Position numbers and translations under genes: made by a program. Under the pieces are notes generated by a model, which did not search any database, was not told the origin of the DNA, and worked only from the letters and a program-made list of their open reading frames with translations. Shown here one piece after another: positions 3,674 to 43,808 of a stretch of DNA of 64,000 nucleotides. The DNA comes from a virus. The stretch spans positions 3,346-67,345 of IMG/VR virus record IMGVR_UViG_3300033412_000010; one strand, 5' to 3'. Within the stretch, counting starts at the first letter, position 1. Each line of letters opens with the position of its first letter.

Positions 3674-3729
3674 GTTTGACGCCATCGGACGTTATCCTGT
3701 TCGCAAATCCTTCAACGGAGTGCGAGCGA

Positions 3730-5436
3730 ATGGCAGAACAACGACCGGGCATCCTTGCGCGGATCCTGAATTGGGGCGTGGCTGGCTCAAATAAGCCGGC
3801 TCCGACAGCGATCGTCAAGGGGCCGACAGTCCAGAGCAGTCCGACTGGCGCGAAGTCGGTCGCCGATCTGATCGAGCCGAATCAGGAATCAAAAGCGTTC
3901 GGCGAACGTGTCGAAGAAATGAACACGGATTATCAGATCGCGTTTTCAAACTTCGTCATTGCGGCCAACGTCGCCGCAGTCCAGGTCTCGATCAGCGTTG
4001 AGAACGGCGACGGCCAGAAGTCGAACACGCTGCAACAGAAGCTTCAAAAACTGTGGGAGCGGTCTGTAACGTCGATGATGCCGTCGGTTGGTTTCGGACG
4101 GGTCGCCTTCGAGAAGGGGTATCAGTTCGACGCAGCGGGCCCGGTGACGTACATCGACAAGCTTGAACCGATGGAATATCAGGACTCAAAATTGAGGTTG
4201 ACTGAGGATCACAAATTCAACGGATTCATGGTCAAGGTTTCCGACGACAAATGGATGCCGGTCGAGCGACAGAACGCATGGTGGCTGACGATCAACGCGA
4301 CCGCGAAGAATCCTCACGGGATCTCGCATTACAAGGGGGCCGTCGAAAAGGCATGGGAAAACAAGTGCTACTCGATGCACAACCGCAAGACCTATGTCAG
4401 GCGTTTTGCGATCCGTGGCGGTGTGATGAGGGGTCCGGAAACTGTCGTCGATGAACGGACAGGCCAGCAGGTGAGCGGTGCTGAACGGGCACTGGCTGCG
4501 CTGGAAGCTCTCTATTCCGGTGGGACGTTTTACGCTTCAAACGAACCGCATCATGACCAGCGGTTTGCCGACAAGGGCGAATACGAATGGATGTTCGACG
4601 AAGCGAACACGACTGACCTTGACCCCACGCCAATTTTGAACGTCATTGAAAAAGACGACGTGGCAATTTTGCGGGCGTTCGGAATTCCAGAGAAGACCGT
4701 TATCGAGGGGGAAGCGGTCGGTTCGTTCGCGATGGTCTCTGAACAGATGATGACTCTGTTCGCGCTCGTGGATTCGTTCGTCAGTCAATGGGTCGAATCG
4801 TTTCAATCGTACGTTGTCGAACCGTCGCGCGAACTGAACTATGGGACCGGGCCGGGGCCGACGTTCACAATTCACGCGGTAAAGTTGTCGAATCGGCCGG
4901 ATTCGTTCGTCGTTCAGTTGGTAGAGGCCTTGGCAGCCAATCCTCAGTTCTCAACCGTGCTGCTGTCGGGCGGCGTGGACTTGCGCGACATGCTTTCGAA
5001 ATTGGGGATCCCGGTCAGCACTGACTTTGAAACGATCGCGAAACAAGTCGCCGCGAGGTTCCTTGCAACGCAGGGCGCGATGGCAGCCGCGCCGTCTGCA
5101 GGTGGTGCAGGCGCTGCTGGAGAGCCTGGAACAAGCCCGCCTGCGGTTCCGGCTGAGTTCGCGAACTTCTCGACGTTGCAGTTGAACCGGGCTTTCGCGG
5201 CGACGTCGAAGATTCAACAGGCGTTCATTGACGGGACTGATTCGGAAACCGTCGCACGTATCAAGCTGAAGTCGATCGGCTGGTCCCAAGATAACGTCGA
5301 CAAACTGATTGCCGACGCGTCAGACGGGAAAGTCGATGAACCGCCGATCGCGATGCGGAATCTGATCCAGGGGCAAAAGATCGAGTTCCAAAACTTCCTT
5401 GCAGAACTCGTAAAAAAAAAGTCCCAACAGAGTTGA
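3730..5436 (+). CDS. portal protein (DUF935/Mu gp29-like)
   Basis: Follows terL; GFGRVAFEK, KNPHGIS, PEKTVIEG..VGSFA motifs typical of Mu-like portals; upstream of gpF. Confidence 0.8.
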   Translation: MAEQRPGILARILNWGVAGSNKPAPTAIVKGPTVQSSPTGAKSVADLIEPNQESKAFGERVEEMNTDYQIAFSNFVIAANVAAVQVSISVENGDGQKSNTLQQKLQKLWERSVTSMMPSVGFGRVAFEKGYQFDAAGPVTYIDKLEPMEYQDSKLRLTEDHKFNGFMVKVSDDKWMPVERQNAWWLTINATAKNPHGISHYKGAVEKAWENKCYSMHNRKTYVRRFAIRGGVMRGPETVVDERTGQQVSGAERALAALEALYSGGTFYASNEPHHDQRFADKGEYEWMFDEANTTDLDPTPILNVIEKDDVAILRAFGIPEKTVIEGEAVGSFAMVSEQMMTLFALVDSFVSQWVESFQSYVVEPSRELNYGTGPGPTFTIHAVKLSNRPDSFVVQLVEALAANPQFSTVLLSGGVDLRDMLSKLGIPVSTDFETIAKQVAARFLATQGAMAAAPSAGGAGAAGEPGTSPPAVPAEFANFSTLQLNRAFAATSKIQQAFIDGTDSETVARIKLKSIGWSQDNVDKLIADASDGKVDEPPIAMRNLIQGQKIEFQNFLAELVKKKSQQS

Positions 5437-5470
5437 TTCGGAGAGCGATTGACGCGGTTGAACTCAACTC
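5415..5470 (+). other. candidate -1 programmed ribosomal frameshift signal (portal to gpF)
   Basis: A_AAA_AAG at 5415-5421 in the portal frame; stem GAGTTGA 5430-5436 / TCAACTC 5464-5470 begins 8 nt downstream; -1 frame is the gpF frame. Confidence 0.6.
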
Positions 5471-6407
5471 AGGCGGCCTTTGCTTCACGAACTCGTTGAA
5501 GATCCTGGCGAATGCGATCGAGCCAGCCAGCACGCAAAAAGAACTGGCCGGCGCTCCGAACGTGCCCAATTGGGAAGTCTTCGCCGATCGAGCGGTCGAG
5601 ATTGCGCACGAACTGTTTGACAAACTGGAAGCGGCGCTCGCGAAAGAAGCTCCGCTTGCCGAACTGGAAGAGATTCGCAAGCAGATCGAGCAACTTGGGA
5701 ACATCGTGCGAGTTGCCGGGCTGGTCATGGGGTACATGGCTCCGTTCAAGCCGAAGCGCCGCAAGACAGGGTTGATTGCATTCGGGCCGACGGTCCCGGC
5801 AGCCGAAGTCAAAAGCGTGTTCCCCTGGATTCAGACGGCGATTGATTTTCTATCGTCGAAAGAGGTCGTGAAGGCTTCGGAGTTCGCAGGTCTATCGATC
5901 GACCAGCAACAGGCGGCCTTCACGGCGCCCGGCATGGAAGATCGAGACGAGTTGAAGAATCTTCGGGACGAAATCGCCAAGGGGCAGAATCAGGAAGCCG
6001 GCGGGGAAAGCCTGGCAGACTTCCGAAAGCGGATTGGAAACGATCTCGCTTTGACAAGGGCCCAAACGGAAACGGTGTTTCGAACGAACGTAAAACAGGG
6101 CTACGTCACCGGCTTTGACAAGGGACTGAAGTCAGATTTCGTATCGGAACTTTTCCCGGCAGTCATGTTCAGCGCAACGCGCGACAATCGCGTCAGGGAC
6201 ACGCATTTCGAGCTTGATGGATTCATCACATTGAGAACCGACCCGGCCTACAAAGTTCTCCTGCGAGCGCTCAAGGATTTCGGATGTCGTTGTTCCCCAA
6301 TTCCAATGACATTGGACCAAGCGGAAGCGGCCGGCGGGTTGAAGACAATCTCGGATCTTCGAACCTACTATCCGGATGTCATGGCGAAATACGGACAGGG
6401 GCTTTAG
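5433..6407 (+). CDS. head morphogenesis protein (Mu gpF / SPP1 gp7 family)
   Basis: ETVFRTNVKQGY, FSATRDNRVRDTH, FGCRCS motifs; only a weak TTG start. Confidence 0.88.
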   Translation: MIRRAIDAVELNSGGLCFTNSLKILANAIEPASTQKELAGAPNVPNWEVFADRAVEIAHELFDKLEAALAKEAPLAELEEIRKQIEQLGNIVRVAGLVMGYMAPFKPKRRKTGLIAFGPTVPAAEVKSVFPWIQTAIDFLSSKEVVKASEFAGLSIDQQQAAFTAPGMEDRDELKNLRDEIAKGQNQEAGGESLADFRKRIGNDLALTRAQTETVFRTNVKQGYVTGFDKGLKSDFVSELFPAVMFSATRDNRVRDTHFELDGFITLRTDPAYKVLLRALKDFGCRCSPIPMTLDQAEAAGGLKTISDLRTYYPDVMAKYGQGL

Positions 6408-6654: not shown

Positions 6655-7989
6655 ATGACCGCCGAATACCTTTCCCGTGAAGACGAACTGGCATTGATTG
6701 TTCGAGCCAAGACTGGCGACAAGGCCGCCATTGAGGCACTGCTTGATAATTTTGCAGGGTGTCTCCACAAAATGGCTGGAATCTGGCATCGAAAATACGT
6801 TTTCGGGCAATGTGAATACGAGGATTGCTTTCAGGCCGCATGCATGGGAGTGATGAAGGCCATTGACAAGTTCGACGTTGCATCAGGAAATGCACTGATG
6901 ACTTTGTCATATATTCTGATCCGGCAATCACTGCAGGAAATGCAGAAGACAATGGATGTCATAAGGCGTCCCCGTCATTCACGGCGACGAACGACATCGT
7001 TAAACGTTTCCGTCGAAGATGGAGCATCTGAACTACAAGACATTTGTGCCGTCGCTCCGCACGTGGATGTATCCAGTCGACTCACGAGGGAAGACGAGCA
7101 CGCCAAGGCAGAATCTCTTTTGCGATATTTGACTACCCGTGAACGCGCCATAATGCTGCTGCATTACGGCGGCTCAACTTTTGAGGAGATTGCGTCGCAA
7201 TTCGGAGTGACCAAACAGCGAATCCATCAAGTCATCAGCAAGTCACTGCATAAACTGAAGAAGATCGCGTATTCGCTTGGCATCACGGATGACGACGGCA
7301 GGTTAAGGCGATCTTCTACTTCGTGCCCGCACTGCCACGGAGACGACATAGAACGCATCTCAAATGATCAGCGCGAATTCCGCTGCAATGAGTGCGATAA
7401 ACAGTTTCTCCCAGCTTCATGTAAGCGGCCTCGTCGCATCAGGCTCGAAGAGAGCGTTTCCTCGGAAGGGTGCCCGAAATGCGGAAGCCTGGATATTGTT
7501 AAAAGAGGATTCGACCCAAGAGGCAAACAACGTATTCGATGCAAGAAATGCTGGTCATCATCAATCCCGTCTCAACTGCTGACGTTTGGTAATCACCGCA
7601 CGTACGATGATGTTGAACCATTCTTTTCGCAGAAACTCCATGACTATGAGATTTGCGAAATACTGAAAATGAATGCTCGTGACGTAGCTGCATTTCGCAG
7701 GGAGTACGAATCGTCTCATGGCGCTACGCTTTGTCCATGCGGGCGGAGAATGACTCACCGAGGCTTCTGCGAATACCGCCTCAACCGCAGTCCAAAATGC
7801 GTCAAGAAACGATTGCTTGCGATGACGATTGGGGACGGCCGCAAGTATCTTGAAGTTGTCGCCATGAAGAAAAGGAAAACCAAGAAGACGACTTCAGCGG
7901 TTGCATCCACGTTGGCATCGAAATCCACCGTCCTTTCTGGGGAGGCTCTGCGAGTCATGGCTTCCGTTATCGCTGCGTTTGCGAGGTGA
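6655..7989 (+). CDS. sigma-70 family RNA polymerase sigma factor fused to C-terminal zinc ribbons
   Basis: Region 2 EDCFQAACMGVMKAIDKFD; region 4 TFEEIASQFGVTKQRIHQVISKSLHKL; then CPHC..CNEC, CPKC..CKKC and CPCG..C motifs. Confidence 0.85.
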   Translation: MTAEYLSREDELALIVRAKTGDKAAIEALLDNFAGCLHKMAGIWHRKYVFGQCEYEDCFQAACMGVMKAIDKFDVASGNALMTLSYILIRQSLQEMQKTMDVIRRPRHSRRRTTSLNVSVEDGASELQDICAVAPHVDVSSRLTREDEHAKAESLLRYLTTRERAIMLLHYGGSTFEEIASQFGVTKQRIHQVISKSLHKLKKIAYSLGITDDDGRLRRSSTSCPHCHGDDIERISNDQREFRCNECDKQFLPASCKRPRRIRLEESVSSEGCPKCGSLDIVKRGFDPRGKQRIRCKKCWSSSIPSQLLTFGNHRTYDDVEPFFSQKLHDYEICEILKMNARDVAAFRREYESSHGATLCPCGRRMTHRGFCEYRLNRSPKCVKKRLLAMTIGDGRKYLEVVAMKKRKTKKTTSAVASTLASKSTVLSGEALRVMASVIAAFAR

Positions 7990-42683: not shown

Positions 42684-42706
42684 TCCGACAGGCCGATTTT
42701 TCCGTT
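42681..42706 (+). promoter_or_regulatory. TGATCC-N16-CGTT motif
   Basis: Begins at the TGA stop of the upstream gene; CGTT 42703-42706. Confidence 0.7.
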
Positions 42707-42749
42707 GCTGGTTAAATTGTCGGGAAGTCATTCAGAAAAAAGGGAGCGC

Positions 42750-43808
42750 ATGGCGAAGAAAAAATCGGTGTCAGGCAGACAGTCGGCAGCAAAACCAGCA
42801 GCGACGAAAAAAAAGACCGCCAAGAAAAAGGCAGCGGAGAAACCCGCGGCAAATGTCCCTGAAACCGAGTCGCGCGAACCGGCGCATCAGCCGCGCGACT
42901 TCGCGCCAGACGGTCGAAAATTGAGAATTCCCGTCACGAAATTCTGCAAGCCTGGCTATGAGATCTCCGAAGAAGGCGCGGAATCAGTTCAGATCAAGAT
43001 CAAAGTTCCAGACGGCGGCAGCGGCGGTGCAGGTTGTTCTGGCGATTCCGCCTTGGAATTCTTCGGCAGGAAACGACTTCGGATCCGATTCAGCCGGCGA
43101 GGTGTCGGCGAGTGGGGACAAGGCCAGATCGTCGAAGACGGCCCGGGTCAGATCTTCGATTGTGAAACCGAAGTCACATCATTCGGCTGGACGAATGGGG
43201 ACTTCCATTTCTCATTCTGGACAGATCAGATTTCCTTCGAATCTGCGAAGTCGATGTATCGCAAGGCCGGCTCGCTGGAAGTCGAAGTCTTGGGGGAACC
43301 GGTTTCCGGAGACGAGACAGAGGATCACAGCGCGTCCAACGGAGCGCCGAAGCGATGTCGACCGAAGAAGGCGGCAGTGGCATCGAAGGGCCCGACGCTT
43401 CCAGGGATGACGCCTGACGAGTTGTCGGAATCTCATTCTGTCGCGTTGACCGACAAGTTCCGAGTCGACGTTAAAATCATCGGGCTGCCTGAAGGCAAGT
43501 TTTCTTGCCAGTGGACCGGCGATGGACCTGCGGGCGAATGCGGCGAGGCGGAACCGTCTGTTCGAAGTTCGAGCGTTCAAGCCGTGATCTCGAGTATTGG
43601 CCGGGCTGTCGATCACTGGTTGACGTATCCCGGTGCTGAAGAGAGAAAGATTGTCGAACAGTTGCGTCACTGGTTGCACGAACTGGAAGCCGGAAAGACG
43701 CCGAACGTCATCGAATCGGAACTGGCGGACGAAGAACCTGACGACGATGACGAATTCGACGATGACGAATTCGATGGTGACGAATCTGACGACGACGGCG
43801 ACGAGTAG
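42750..43808 (+). CDS. hypothetical protein with Lys/Ala-rich N-tail and acidic C-tail
   Basis: MAKKK...KKKTAKKKAAEK start; DDDDEFDDDEFDGDESDDDGDE end; GGGAG RBS. Confidence 0.7.
   Translation: MAKKKSVSGRQSAAKPAATKKKTAKKKAAEKPAANVPETESREPAHQPRDFAPDGRKLRIPVTKFCKPGYEISEEGAESVQIKIKVPDGGSGGAGCSGDSALEFFGRKRLRIRFSRRGVGEWGQGQIVEDGPGQIFDCETEVTSFGWTNGDFHFSFWTDQISFESAKSMYRKAGSLEVEVLGEPVSGDETEDHSASNGAPKRCRPKKAAVASKGPTLPGMTPDELSESHSVALTDKFRVDVKIIGLPEGKFSCQWTGDGPAGECGEAEPSVRSSSVQAVISSIGRAVDHWLTYPGAEERKIVEQLRHWLHELEAGKTPNVIESELADEEPDDDDEFDDDEFDGDESDDDGDE

What the first reader, a model, noticed from the sequence alone, without database searches (positions are those of the whole stretch)
5410..5470. Candidate -1 programmed frameshift fusing portal to gpF
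Seen: the portal ends ...GTA AAA AAA AAG TCC CAA CAG AGT TGA, with A_AAA_AAG at 5415-5421. A -1 slip enters the gpF frame seamlessly (ELVKKK-VPTELIRRAIDAVEL). Eight nt downstream a compound stem begins (GAGTTGA/TCAACTC, TTC/GAA, inner GCG/CGC). gpF has only a TTG start without a clear RBS. Known: A_AAA_AAG plus a 3' stem-loop is the classic bacterial -1 signal (dnaX, IS3 family). Inference: a fraction of portal subunits carry gpF as a C-terminal fusion, fixing gpF stoichiometry at the vertex. I know of no portal-gpF recoding site. Alternatives: a phase-variable A9/A10 tract or an assembly error, since A10 gives a constitutive fusion.
Basis: partly seen in the sequence, partly recalled or inferred. 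Interest (0 to 1): 0.8.

Follow-up and report, generated by a model that had tools for sequence, protein, structure and literature searches.

The report
Conserved A9 slip site joins portal to MuF
A run of nine A's at the end of this soil phage's portal gene is the most conserved DNA string of the whole gene in twelve related phages. It very probably makes the polymerase or the ribosome slip, so that some portal subunits are made fused to the next head protein (MuF), a gene pair for which I found no published recoding.

Summary
The sequence is as described. The portal gene ends GTA AAA AAA AAG TCC CAA CAG AGT TGA. The A9 run lies at 5412-5420 and A_AAA_AAG at 5415-5421, in phase. The MuF gene lies in the -1 frame.

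- **Conservation.** Eleven other lineages (portal DNA 54-78% identical) all keep the exact 12-mer GTAAAAAAAAAG at this junction. It is the longest invariant string in the portal alignment; the next is 6 nt.
- **Frame switch.** Protein conservation changes frame exactly at the run.
- **No conserved MuF start.** The first ATG/GTG/TTG lies 1 to 74 codons after the run.
- **Natural fusions.** More distant relatives are single-ORF portal-MuF proteins. The conceptual shifted product aligns with them end to end.
- **Mirror case.** One relative keeps the A9 in frame, so a slip there would give the short portal.

I conclude that this is real programmed recoding (about 0.85). It gives portal plus a minor portal-MuF fusion.

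RNA-polymerase slippage on A9, as in Thermus dnaX, is at least as likely as ribosomal -1 frameshifting.

Assembly error and a phase-variable A10 are unlikely. I found no publication of this recoding. This scan has already noted similar portal/MuF poly-A sites on unrelated phage DNA.

The parts
3730..5436 (+). Portal gene (Mu-type). The ORF is open from TTG 3676 and the likely start is ATG 3730. The standard product ends ...LVKKKSQQS.
   Evidence: PF06074 Portal_Mu, 24.0 bits against a cut-off of 23.9. It follows the large terminase gene at 761-2470. Met19 is invariant in the portal alignment A1.
5410..5421 (+). Invariant 12-mer GTAAAAAAAAAG, the slip site. The A9 run is 5412-5420. Two in-phase heptamers lie in it: A_AAA_AAA at 5412-5418 and A_AAA_AAG at 5415-5421.
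   Evidence: Identical in 12 lineages whose portal genes are 54-78% identical in DNA. It is the longest invariant run in the codon alignment; the next is 6 nt. GTA makes up only 5.3% of Val codons and AAA 40% of Lys codons in this phage.
5434..5436 (+). Portal stop codon TGA, four codons after the slip site.
   Evidence: In the relatives the stop lies 0 or 4 codons after AAG.
5421..6407 (+). MuF (SPP1 gp7-like) reading frame, -1 relative to the portal. Conserved coding starts with GTC at 5421, directly after the A9. The frame is open from 5340.
   Evidence: PF04233, 38 bits against a cut-off of 29.6; phrog_220. The codon-phase entropy pattern fits the -1 frame from the first codon after the run. 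The peptide V-[PS]-x-x-x-I-x-x-A-I-D-A-V-E-I is conserved upstream of any shared start.
5433..5435 (+). TTG, the first canonical start in the MuF frame. It overlaps the portal stop (TTGA) and is not conserved.
   Evidence: The equivalent codon is CTG, GTA or other in the relatives. The first canonical start lies 1 to 74 codons after the run in the other lineages. No SD-like motif lies upstream.
5430..5470 (+). Its core overlaps a weakly conserved 6-bp helix (5433-5438 with 5462-5467).
   Evidence: It is not in the MFE, and z = -0.59. The consensus fold is -4.75 kcal/mol. There is modest covariation: 6 of 500 shuffles reach the observed score. Function is doubtful.

Best explanation
The invariant tract GTA AAA AAA AAG at the 3' end of the portal gene is a programmed slippage site.

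Most decoding gives the plain portal protein, about 568 aa, which stops four codons later. A minority of events move reading into the -1 frame at the tract. The result is a portal-MuF fusion of about 892 aa with the junction ...LVKKK-VPTELIRRAID... MuF has no dependable start of its own and is made mainly or only in this way.

The shift can arise in two ways that give the same protein. RNA polymerase may add one A (A9 to A10 in the mRNA), or the ribosome may slip back one base on A_AAA_AAA / A_AAA_AAG. Sequence alone cannot separate them. I lean to polymerase slippage, about 55:45.

Inferred consequence: a few of the twelve portal subunits carry MuF on their C-terminus. In solved portals (my recollection, not checked here) the C-terminus faces the capsid interior. 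This would place a small, set number of MuF copies at the portal vertex. In relatives the MuF carries effector domains, so those would be placed there too. In SPP1 the same placement is achieved by non-covalent gp7-gp6 binding.
For: **Shown**
1. The exact 12-mer is present at the junction in the window and in 11 further lineages from different samples. These include portals only 45-47% identical in protein whose C-terminal tails are otherwise unrelated.
2. In a codon alignment of the portal genes only 12.6% of columns are invariant. The 12-mer is the longest invariant run; the next is TGGTGG, 6 nt. No run longer than 6 nt occurs in MuF.
3. It uses the rare GTA codon, 5.3% of Val codons.
4. MuF is always in the -1 frame and open through the run. 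In L002 and L010 that frame opens only 2-3 codons before KKK, which confines the shift to the tract.
5. Conservation switches frame at the run. After KKK the 0 frame holds 0-4 unconserved codons and a stop. The -1 frame before KKK is unconserved. After KKK it shows a coding phase pattern, with summed entropy 23.3/13.5/30.0 by codon position.
6. The first canonical start in the MuF frame lies at residue 5, 26, 6, 15, 74, 61, 20, 29, 29, 1 and 1 after the run in the 11 lineages where MuF lies in the -1 frame (the in-frame L014 has none), and conserved peptide lies upstream of it.
7. The conceptual fusion aligns in one HSP with natural single-ORF portal-MuF proteins: P0034, query 39-907 against subject 12-802, 42% identity; also P0035 and P0037. 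Of 170 portal homologs, 41 carry MuF in the same ORF.
8. L014 is an in-frame fusion that still has the A9. A -1 or +1 shift there stops within 4-7 codons of the tract, the mirror arrangement.
9. L015, a relative whose MuF is a separate gene two genes downstream, has no A-run at its portal end.
10. In every lineage the non-productive frames close within 10 codons of the tract.

**For the lean to the polymerase**
- All nine A's are invariant, and a run of 9 is the length reported to slip efficiently in bacterial RNAP (PMC5009743).
- No conserved strong 3' structure and no 5' SD-like element was found.
- A Planctomycetaceae genome carrying a distant portal relative has both tRNA-Lys(UUU) and tRNA-Lys(CUU). 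The review links that condition to Thermus using polymerase slippage.
Against: - There are no RNA or protein data. No RNA run holds this DNA, and only assembled contigs could be laid on it. Neither the fusion protein nor A10 transcripts have been observed.
- In the window, L002, L012 and L013 a TTG, ATG or GTG lies at or near the portal stop (TTGA / GTGA overlaps). Some free MuF could therefore also be made by coupled reinitiation.
- The residue-6 codon is ATG, ATT or ATC in all nine close lineages. This is most simply a conserved Ile/Met, but a near-cognate start cannot be excluded.
- The host assignment is weak (portal relatives at 30-34% identity in Planctomycetota MAGs), so the tRNA argument is soft.
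- A weak 6-bp helix with some covariation lies 11 nt downstream in the close clade. It could be a modest ribosomal stimulator.
Confidence: 0.85

Rival explanations
1. Strict version of the first reader's model. It is an E. coli dnaX / IS3-type ribosomal -1 frameshift on A_AAA_AAG, driven by the downstream stem-loop at 5430-5470. This mechanism is already counted inside the best explanation's 0.85, at about 45% of it. The figure given here is for the stem-loop-dependent form only.
For: - The heptamer is in the right phase in all 12 lineages, and the G after the run is invariant.
- In half the lineages the 0-frame stop directly follows AAG, the kind of 'shifty stop' context I recall as stimulating frameshifting (recollection, not checked here).
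- A 7-bp complementary pair exists 8 nt downstream in the window. Its core is a weakly covarying helix in the 9 close lineages (88.9% of cells paired against 28-48% when slid; covariation score reached by 6 of 500 shuffles).
Against: - The stem is not in the MFE, and the window's fold has z = -0.59.
- Among the 12 lineages only L012 (z = -3.4) and L014 (z = -2.1) fold notably better than shuffles.
- The consensus fold is only -4.75 kcal/mol and starts 11 nt after AAG.
- No SD-like element lies upstream.
- The model does not explain why the GTA third base and the first Lys codon are also invariant, unless both tandem heptamers are used.
- The candidate host phylum has tRNA-Lys(CUU), which should hold AAG firmly.
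Confidence: 0.12
2. There is no recoding. MuF is made separately by termination-reinitiation or coupled initiation at whatever codon lies near the portal stop (TTG, GTG, ATG, CTG, ATT or ATC). The A-tract serves as an unstructured A-rich initiation enhancer.
For: - TTGA and GTGA start-stop overlaps occur in the window, L012 and L013, and an ATG lies 6 codons after the run in L002.
- Residue 6 is ATG/ATT/ATC in the nine close lineages.
- Gene callers annotate MuF as a separate gene everywhere.
Against: - An enhancer would not need an exact, invariant A9G at a fixed phase.
- L001, L006, L007, L010 and L011 have no canonical start for 26-74 codons although the peptide upstream is conserved.
- L014 reads straight through the same tract as one ORF, and 41 of 170 relatives are natural fusions.
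- The relative with a truly separate MuF gene lacks the tract (L015).
Confidence: 0.08
3. It is a DNA-level effect. The true sequence is A10 (an assembly or sequencing error hiding a plain fusion gene), or the tract is phase-variable by replication slippage between A9 and A10.
For: Homopolymers are error-prone and mutable, and an A10 would give a constitutive fusion.
Against: - Twelve divergent lineages from different samples and assemblers all show A9. Duplicate contigs of the same lineage agree (L002/L003, L004/L005, L008/L009).
- An independent Logan contig of run X1 matches the window without any difference.
- None of the lineages is fixed as A10.
- The one in-frame relative became so by a change after the run and kept A9.
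Confidence: 0.03
4. It is only a coding constraint or chance. VKKK is a functional C-terminal peptide of the portal and the A-run is incidental.
For: VKKK is conserved at the protein level in 14 portal homologs. AAA AAA AAG also encodes KKK in another gene, at 42807.
Against: - Every synonymous position is frozen in 12 lineages although GTA is rare and AAG is the preferred Lys codon.
- This does not explain the abutting start-less -1 MuF frame or the collinearity with natural fusions.
Confidence: 0.02

Closest known systems
Thermus thermophilus dnaX (tau/gamma) programmed transcriptional slippage on a run of nine A/T (as described in Atkins et al. 2016, PMC5009743)
   Same: - A homopolymer of exactly 9 lies inside a coding region.
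- One DNA stretch yields a short and a long protein that share an N-terminus.
- Stops follow closely in the frames that give the short form.
- The organism is likely to have both tRNA-Lys species.
- L014 has the same polarity as Thermus dnaX: the long form is in the DNA frame and slips give the short form.
   Different: - The genes differ: phage portal and MuF rather than a clamp-loader subunit.
- In the window and 10 other lineages the polarity is reversed, so the slip gives the long form.
- mRNA heterogeneity has not been shown here.
E. coli dnaX and IS3-family -1 ribosomal frameshifting on A_AAA_AAG
   Same: The heptamer is identical and in the correct phase. In IS3 elements the shift likewise produces a fusion (OrfAB).
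   Different: No convincing 3' stem-loop or pseudoknot and no upstream SD-like stimulator is conserved. The conserved unit is the full A9, not just the heptamer.
Lambda gpG/gpGT-type tail assembly chaperone -1 frameshift (Xu, Hendrix and Duda 2004, cited in PMC7302621 and PMC7911831)
   Same: It is a conserved recoding event in a phage structural-gene cluster. It sets a fixed low ratio of an extended to a short protein that share an N-terminal part.
   Different: The gene pair and the stage of assembly differ (head vertex, not tail). The slippery sequence is a homopolymer. The mechanism may be transcriptional.
Single-gene portal-MuF fusions (Microbacterium phage clusters EA3/EA5/EA8 and EB, PMC7302621; portal-MuF-effector 'polyvalent' architectures, PMC5512222)
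   Same: The domain order is the same, portal then MuF. The shifted product here is collinear with natural fusions of its own family.
   Different: Those are constitutive, so every subunit is fused. Here the two parts lie in different frames and a conserved slip site sits between them, so both the plain and the fused portal should be made.
SPP1 gp6-gp7 (portal binds the MuF homolog and brings a few copies into the procapsid; PMC6316719)
   Same: The same two protein families are involved, and the presumed outcome is the same: a few MuF copies at the portal inside the head.
   Different: In SPP1 the link is non-covalent and gp7 has its own gene start. Here the link would be covalent and set by slippage frequency.

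Membership tests
Programmed -1 ribosomal frameshift cassette (dnaX / IS3 type) | X_XXY_YYZ slippery heptamer in the 0 frame | tested here: met
   A_AAA_AAG lies at 5415-5421 and A_AAA_AAA at 5412-5418, both in the portal frame. The phase is the same in all 12 lineages.
Programmed -1 ribosomal frameshift cassette (dnaX / IS3 type) | Stimulatory RNA structure 5-9 nt downstream (stem-loop or pseudoknot) | tested here: inconclusive
Ten of 12 lineages have z > -1.7. The consensus is only a 6-bp helix 11 nt downstream at -4.75 kcal/mol with modest covariation.
Programmed -1 ribosomal frameshift cassette (dnaX / IS3 type) | Upstream Shine-Dalgarno-like stimulator (dnaX type) | tested here: not met
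   No shared GGAG-like element occurs in the 45 nt upstream in the 12 lineages. The upstream folds are also unremarkable.
Programmed -1 ribosomal frameshift cassette (dnaX / IS3 type) | Host decodes AAG with the sole tRNA-Lys(UUU), the basis of the high shiftiness in E. coli | tested here: not met
   The Planctomycetaceae MAG that carries a distant portal relative has tRNA-Lys(UUU) and tRNA-Lys(CUU). The host link is weak. The phage itself encodes no tRNA.
Programmed transcriptional slippage (Thermus dnaX type) | Homopolymeric A/T run of about the RNA-DNA hybrid length (9 or more) | tested here: met
   A9 lies at 5412-5420 and is the longest homopolymer in the window. The threshold is taken from PMC5009743.
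Programmed transcriptional slippage (Thermus dnaX type) | Run length conserved under selection, including synonymous positions | tested here: met
   Exactly nine A's occur in 12 lineages. The 12-mer is the longest invariant string in the portal codon alignment.
Programmed transcriptional slippage (Thermus dnaX type) | Heterogeneous transcripts (A10, A11 and so on) from a uniform DNA template | not testable with these tools
   No RNA run holds the stretch. The DNA runs are kept only as contigs.
Recoding in general | Downstream ORF lacks its own conserved initiation site, and conservation switches frame at the site | tested here: met
Mu-type portal (PF06074) | Match to the family profile and position after the large terminase | tested here: met
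   24.0 bits against a cut-off of 23.9, so just over it. The terminase gene lies at 761-2470. Homologs carry PF06074.
MuF / SPP1 gp7 head protein (PF04233) | Match to the family profile | tested here: met
   38 bits against a cut-off of 29.6, residues 190-288; phrog_220 with E = 1.8e-16.
Single-ORF portal-MuF fusion proteins | Portal and MuF domains in one uninterrupted reading frame | tested here: not met
   In the window and 10 relatives the two parts lie in different frames. Only the conceptual shifted product is collinear with natural fusions.

The most novel reading that the evidence does not exclude
Portal-MuF recoding is a general solution that arose more than once and has not been described. 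Tailed phages of unrelated host phyla (here, probably Planctomycetota soil phages) would use RNA-polymerase slippage on a 9-10 A tract to set how many of the twelve portal subunits carry a covalently attached MuF or MuF-effector cargo. The polarity would be switchable in evolution, so that a slip gives either the fusion or the plain portal. That would make it a second widespread recoding event of phage structural genes beside the tail-chaperone G/GT frameshift, and a rare case of programmed transcriptional slippage in phage morphogenesis.
Probability: 0.4. Interest if true: 0.85.

Novelty: new variant of a known kind. Interest (0 to 1): 0.72.

Why it matters
If this is true, several things follow.

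- **Annotation.** The portal of these phages exists in two forms, and MuF is not a free protein but a C-terminal extension of a few portal subunits. The MuF genes of these phages would be mis-annotated, with arbitrary and often truncated starts (up to 74 codons lost).
- **Assembly.** It offers a simple stoichiometric mechanism for loading a small number of MuF molecules, and the toxin or effector domains that relatives attach to them, at the vertex through which DNA leaves.
- **Recoding.** It adds a new gene pair to the short list of conserved recoding events in phage structural modules.
- **Mechanism.** The family holds both polarities of the switch, which makes it a good natural system for asking whether the polymerase or the ribosome slips.

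Tried and rejected
**Searches that gave little**
- Single-protein and alignment scans of IMG/VR found no relatives.
- The metagenome and genome scans gave only distant portals without an adjacent MuF (L016-L019). I used these only as a weak host hint (Planctomycetota).

**Reads**
- The three runs that hold the DNA are kept only as contigs, and only X1 could be laid. It matched with A9 and no variants. No RNA run was found. So read-level A9/A10 counts and transcript heterogeneity could not be examined.

**RNA structure**
- The 69 nt downstream were folded in 12 lineages. A consensus fold and pair counts were made for the 9 close lineages, and the upstream 60 nt were folded in 11 lineages. No convincing conserved stimulator appeared, only a weak 6-bp helix.

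**Explanations rejected**
- The A-run as a by-product of a conserved VKKK peptide: rejected because the synonymous sites are frozen.
- Assembly error or A10: rejected because 12 lineages and the duplicate contigs agree.
- Pure coupled reinitiation: judged unlikely because several lineages lack any start for 26-74 conserved codons.

**Literature**
- Seven full-text searches and in-text look-ups in six papers, among them the 2016 recoding review, which has zero mentions of 'portal', and the PRFect paper.
- I found portal-MuF single-gene fusions but no portal-MuF recoding. The library is not exhaustive.

**This scan's own index**
- It holds no sequence relatives of this locus.
Full report
**1. 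The observation**

The window is part of a 68.7-kb virus record.

The ORF 3676-5436 (+) is a Mu-type portal. It matches PF06074 at 24.0 bits, against a cut-off of 23.9, and it follows a large-terminase gene at 761-2470. Its likely start is ATG 3730, because Met19 is invariant among homologs.

The portal ends gta aaa aaa aag tcc caa cag agt tga. The A run is nine bases long, 5412-5420. A_AAA_AAG lies at 5415-5421 in the portal frame. A second in-phase heptamer, A_AAA_AAA, lies at 5412-5418.

The -1 frame is open from 5340. After the run it reads KKK-VPTELIRRAIDAVEL... into a 324-aa Mu F / SPP1 gp7-like protein (PF04233, 38 bits; phrog_220) that ends at 6407. The first canonical start in that frame is TTG 5433, which overlaps the portal stop. 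It has no Shine-Dalgarno-like motif. Many genes of this phage carry GGAG/GGGA-like motifs 9-13 nt upstream.

The A9 is the longest homopolymer in the 64 kb. Only one other run reaches 7 or more, an A8 at 42807. In-frame A_AAA_AAR heptamers occur only here (two, in tandem) and once at 42809.

**2. Conservation in relatives**

A protein search with MuF and then with the portal found relatives only in metagenome assemblies. I fetched the DNA for eleven further distinct lineages: L001, L002/3, L004/5, L006, L007, L008/9, L010, L011, L012, L013 and L014.

All of them carry exactly GTAAAAAAAAAG at the portal/MuF junction. This includes L012 and L013. Their portals are only 45-47% identical to the window's, and their C-terminal tails are unrelated except for the final VKKK.

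In a protein-guided codon alignment of the twelve portal genes (54-78% DNA identity to the window), only 12.6% of columns are invariant. The 12-mer is the longest invariant run. The runner-up is TGGTGG, two Trp codons with no synonymous choice. In MuF no invariant run is longer than 6 nt.

The tract uses GTA, which is 5.3% of Val codons in this phage, and AAA, which is 40% of Lys codons. The constraint is therefore on the nucleotides, not on the peptide.

**3. Frame logic**

In the eleven lineages other than L014, MuF is in the -1 frame, and in all twelve that frame is open through the run. In L002 and L010 it opens only 2-3 codons before KKK, so the shift has to occur within the tract.

Conservation changes frame at the run.
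- After KKK the portal frame holds 0 or 4 unconserved codons and then a stop.
- Before KKK the -1 frame is unconserved.
- Directly after KKK the -1 frame encodes a conserved peptide, V-[PS]-x-x-x-I-x-x-A-I-D-A-V-E-I-x-P-x-G-L-C-F-A-N-S.
- That stretch shows a coding phase signature, with summed entropy by codon position of 23.3 / 13.5 / 30.0.

The first ATG/GTG/TTG in that frame lies at these residues after the run:

| Lineage | Residue of first canonical start |
|---|---|
| window | 5 |
| L001 | 26 |
| L002 | 6 |
| L004 | 15 |
| L006 | 74 |
| L007 | 61 |
| L008 | 20 |
| L010 | 29 |
| L011 | 29 |
| L012 | 1 |
| L013 | 1 |

Gene callers accordingly place MuF starts anywhere up to 204 nt downstream of the portal stop. 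MuF therefore has no conserved initiation site.

**4. The fusion is a natural architecture of this family**

More distant portal homologs (34-47% identity) are single ORFs that carry PF06074 plus PF04233. Of 170 homologs collected, 41 contain MuF in the same ORF, and 14 plain portals end in VKKK with 0-4 further residues.

The conceptual -1 product of the window aligns in a single HSP with P0034 (query 39-907 against subject 12-802, 42% identity), and with P0037 and P0035.

L014, which encodes P0034, is especially telling. It keeps the same GTAAAAAAAAAG but continues in frame (AAG ACC CTG ...). Its -1 and +1 frames stop within 4-7 codons after the tract. It is the mirror arrangement, in which slipping gives the plain portal.

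L015 is a relative whose MuF is a separate gene two genes downstream. Its portal ends ...FLAELGG with no A-run.

The tract thus occurs together with a directly abutting MuF frame.

**5. What slips**

With A8, A9 or A11 in the message, every out-of-frame lineage gives a short portal whose tail has at most 10 extra residues. Only A10 gives the fusion, and a -1 ribosomal shift gives the identical protein.

*Ribosomal model.* I looked for stimulators.
It is not in the minimum-free-energy fold, and the region is no more stable than shuffles (z = -0.59).
- Across the twelve lineages, only L012 (z = -3.4) and L014 (z = -2.1) stand out.
- The consensus fold of the nine close lineages is a 6-bp helix (window 5433-5438 with 5462-5467) that starts 11 nt after AAG, at -4.75 kcal/mol.
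- That helix has modest covariation. In total 88.9% of cells pair, against 28-48% when the partners are slid, and 6 of 500 shuffles reach the covariation score.
- That is suggestive at best, and the tool's own caveats apply.
- The 60 nt upstream show no structure and no shared SD-like element.

*Polymerase model.*
- All nine A's are frozen, including the third base of the rare GTA codon.
- According to the 2016 recoding review, a run of nine A/T slips with high efficiency in bacterial RNA polymerase. Thermus thermophilus dnaX exploits such a run, with nearby stops in both other frames.
- The review links this to Thermus having separate tRNAs for AAA and AAG, unlike E. coli (PMC5009743).
- The only cellular genomes with distant relatives of this portal are Planctomycetota MAGs. 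One of them has both tRNA-Lys(UUU) and tRNA-Lys(CUU). The phage itself carries no tRNA.
- The host link is weak, and the tandem heptamers could also explain the invariance of the GTA third base.

My estimate is recoding real at about 0.85. Within that I put about 55% on polymerase slippage and about 45% on ribosomal shifting. Both could contribute.

**6. DNA-level alternatives**

An assembly error, or a phase-variable A9/A10 tract, is unlikely.
- Twelve divergent lineages from different samples and assemblers all show A9.
- Duplicate contigs of three lineages agree.
- An independent Logan contig of run X1 matches the window without any difference, although that run may be the source sample.
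- No lineage is fixed as A10.

Raw reads were not available, so low-level DNA heterogeneity remains untested.

**7. Likely function (inference)**

In SPP1 the portal gp6 binds the MuF homolog gp7 strongly and so brings a few copies into the procapsid interior. MuF-like proteins often carry toxins at their C-termini that are thought to be delivered to the host (PMC6316719; PMC5512222).

In solved portal structures the C-terminus lies on the capsid-interior side. This is my recollection and was not tested here.

A slippage-set fraction of portal-MuF subunits would therefore place a small, fixed number of MuF copies at the vertex without any need for a binding interface.

In this family, effector domains sit on both sides of the slip site.
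- There is an ART-PolyVal-like domain before the VKKK end of portal P0028.
- There is an ADP-ribosyltransferase domain inside MuF P0013.
- There is a PFIN-like end on P0009.
- The MuF proteins of L008 and L015 are much longer than the window's.

Whether the fusion is later cleaved is unknown.

**8. Comparison with what is known, and novelty**

Single-gene portal-MuF fusions are published, in Microbacterium phage clusters EA3/5/8 and EB (PMC7302621) and as portal/MuF/effector architectures (PMC5512222).

Programmed slippage that gives two products is well known: dnaX, IS3 elements, and the tail chaperone G/GT.

I found no paper that describes recoding between portal and MuF.
- Seven full-text searches found none.
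- The large 2016 review never mentions 'portal'.
- PRFect lists MuF only in the context of MuF-VIP2 fusions.

The library is not exhaustive.

This scan's own notes report similar poly-A or heptamer sites at portal/MuF junctions in Bacteroidota, spirochaete and marine phages. Those notes are unchecked AI notes on other DNA, and none shares sequence with this locus. They do not count as evidence here. If they are right, the phenomenon is widespread and this would be a further lineage showing it.

**Verdict**

This is a real, strongly conserved recoding site. It is a new variant of a known kind.

Noticed in passing
window 42750-42830 (A8 at 42807-42814): This is the only other long A-run and the only other in-frame A_AAA_AAG heptamer (42809-42815) in the window. 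It lies in the Lys/Ala-rich N-terminus (MAKKKS...TKKKTAKKK) of ORF 42705-43808. A -1 shift there would stop after 15 codons. It is probably incidental.
   Followed up: partly
window 3676-3732: The longest-ORF start of the portal is TTG 3676. Homologs begin at the equivalent of ATG 3730, where Met19 is invariant, so the portal is probably 568 aa rather than 586.
   Followed up: partly
window 6655-7989: A sigma-70-type factor (regions 2 and 4) with C-terminal zinc-ribbon modules lies directly after MuF, inside the head-gene region. The scan's index holds another first-reader note on it.
   Followed up: no
P0028 (portal homolog, 769 aa); L007 3001-4395 (P0013); L010 3001-4215 (P0009); L008 3001-4692 (P0015): Effector-like domains flank the slip site in relatives. 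P0028 has an ART-PolyVal-like match (27.3 bits, below the Pfam cut-off) between its portal core and the VKKK end. MuF P0013 contains an ADP-ribosyltransferase exoenzyme domain. P0009 has a PFIN-like C-terminus. P0015 has a faint intein-like match. This fits the published 'polyvalent'/MuF-toxin theme.
   Followed up: partly
L002 3966-4481, L004 3952-4467, L006 3778-4293: In several relatives a SLATT-domain gene (PF18186/PF18160) directly follows MuF, and in L006 a BubE-domain gene comes next. The window has the sigma factor at that position instead.
   Followed up: no
L002 275-2989 (P0029, 904 aa) and L015 2501-5239 (P0032, 912 aa): These two portals are about 330 aa longer than the others. In P0029 the extra part lies between the portal core (matched to residue 537) and the conserved ...FLNDLSVKKK end. 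Pfam gives no match for it.
   Followed up: no
L048 (G001:C156:2326-5396) and G001:C153: The Planctomycetaceae MAG used as a host proxy has dense tRNA arrays. Seven tRNAs lie within 800 bp on C156, including both tRNA-Lys species, and there are many tRNA hits on C153. This may be a tRNA island or a phage-borne array.
   Followed up: no
P0183 (703 aa, residue 444): A very distant fused portal-MuF homolog has ...FALKKKRLAS... just before its MuF part. This may be another A-run at the junction. Its DNA could not be fetched because the look-ups were exhausted.
   Followed up: no
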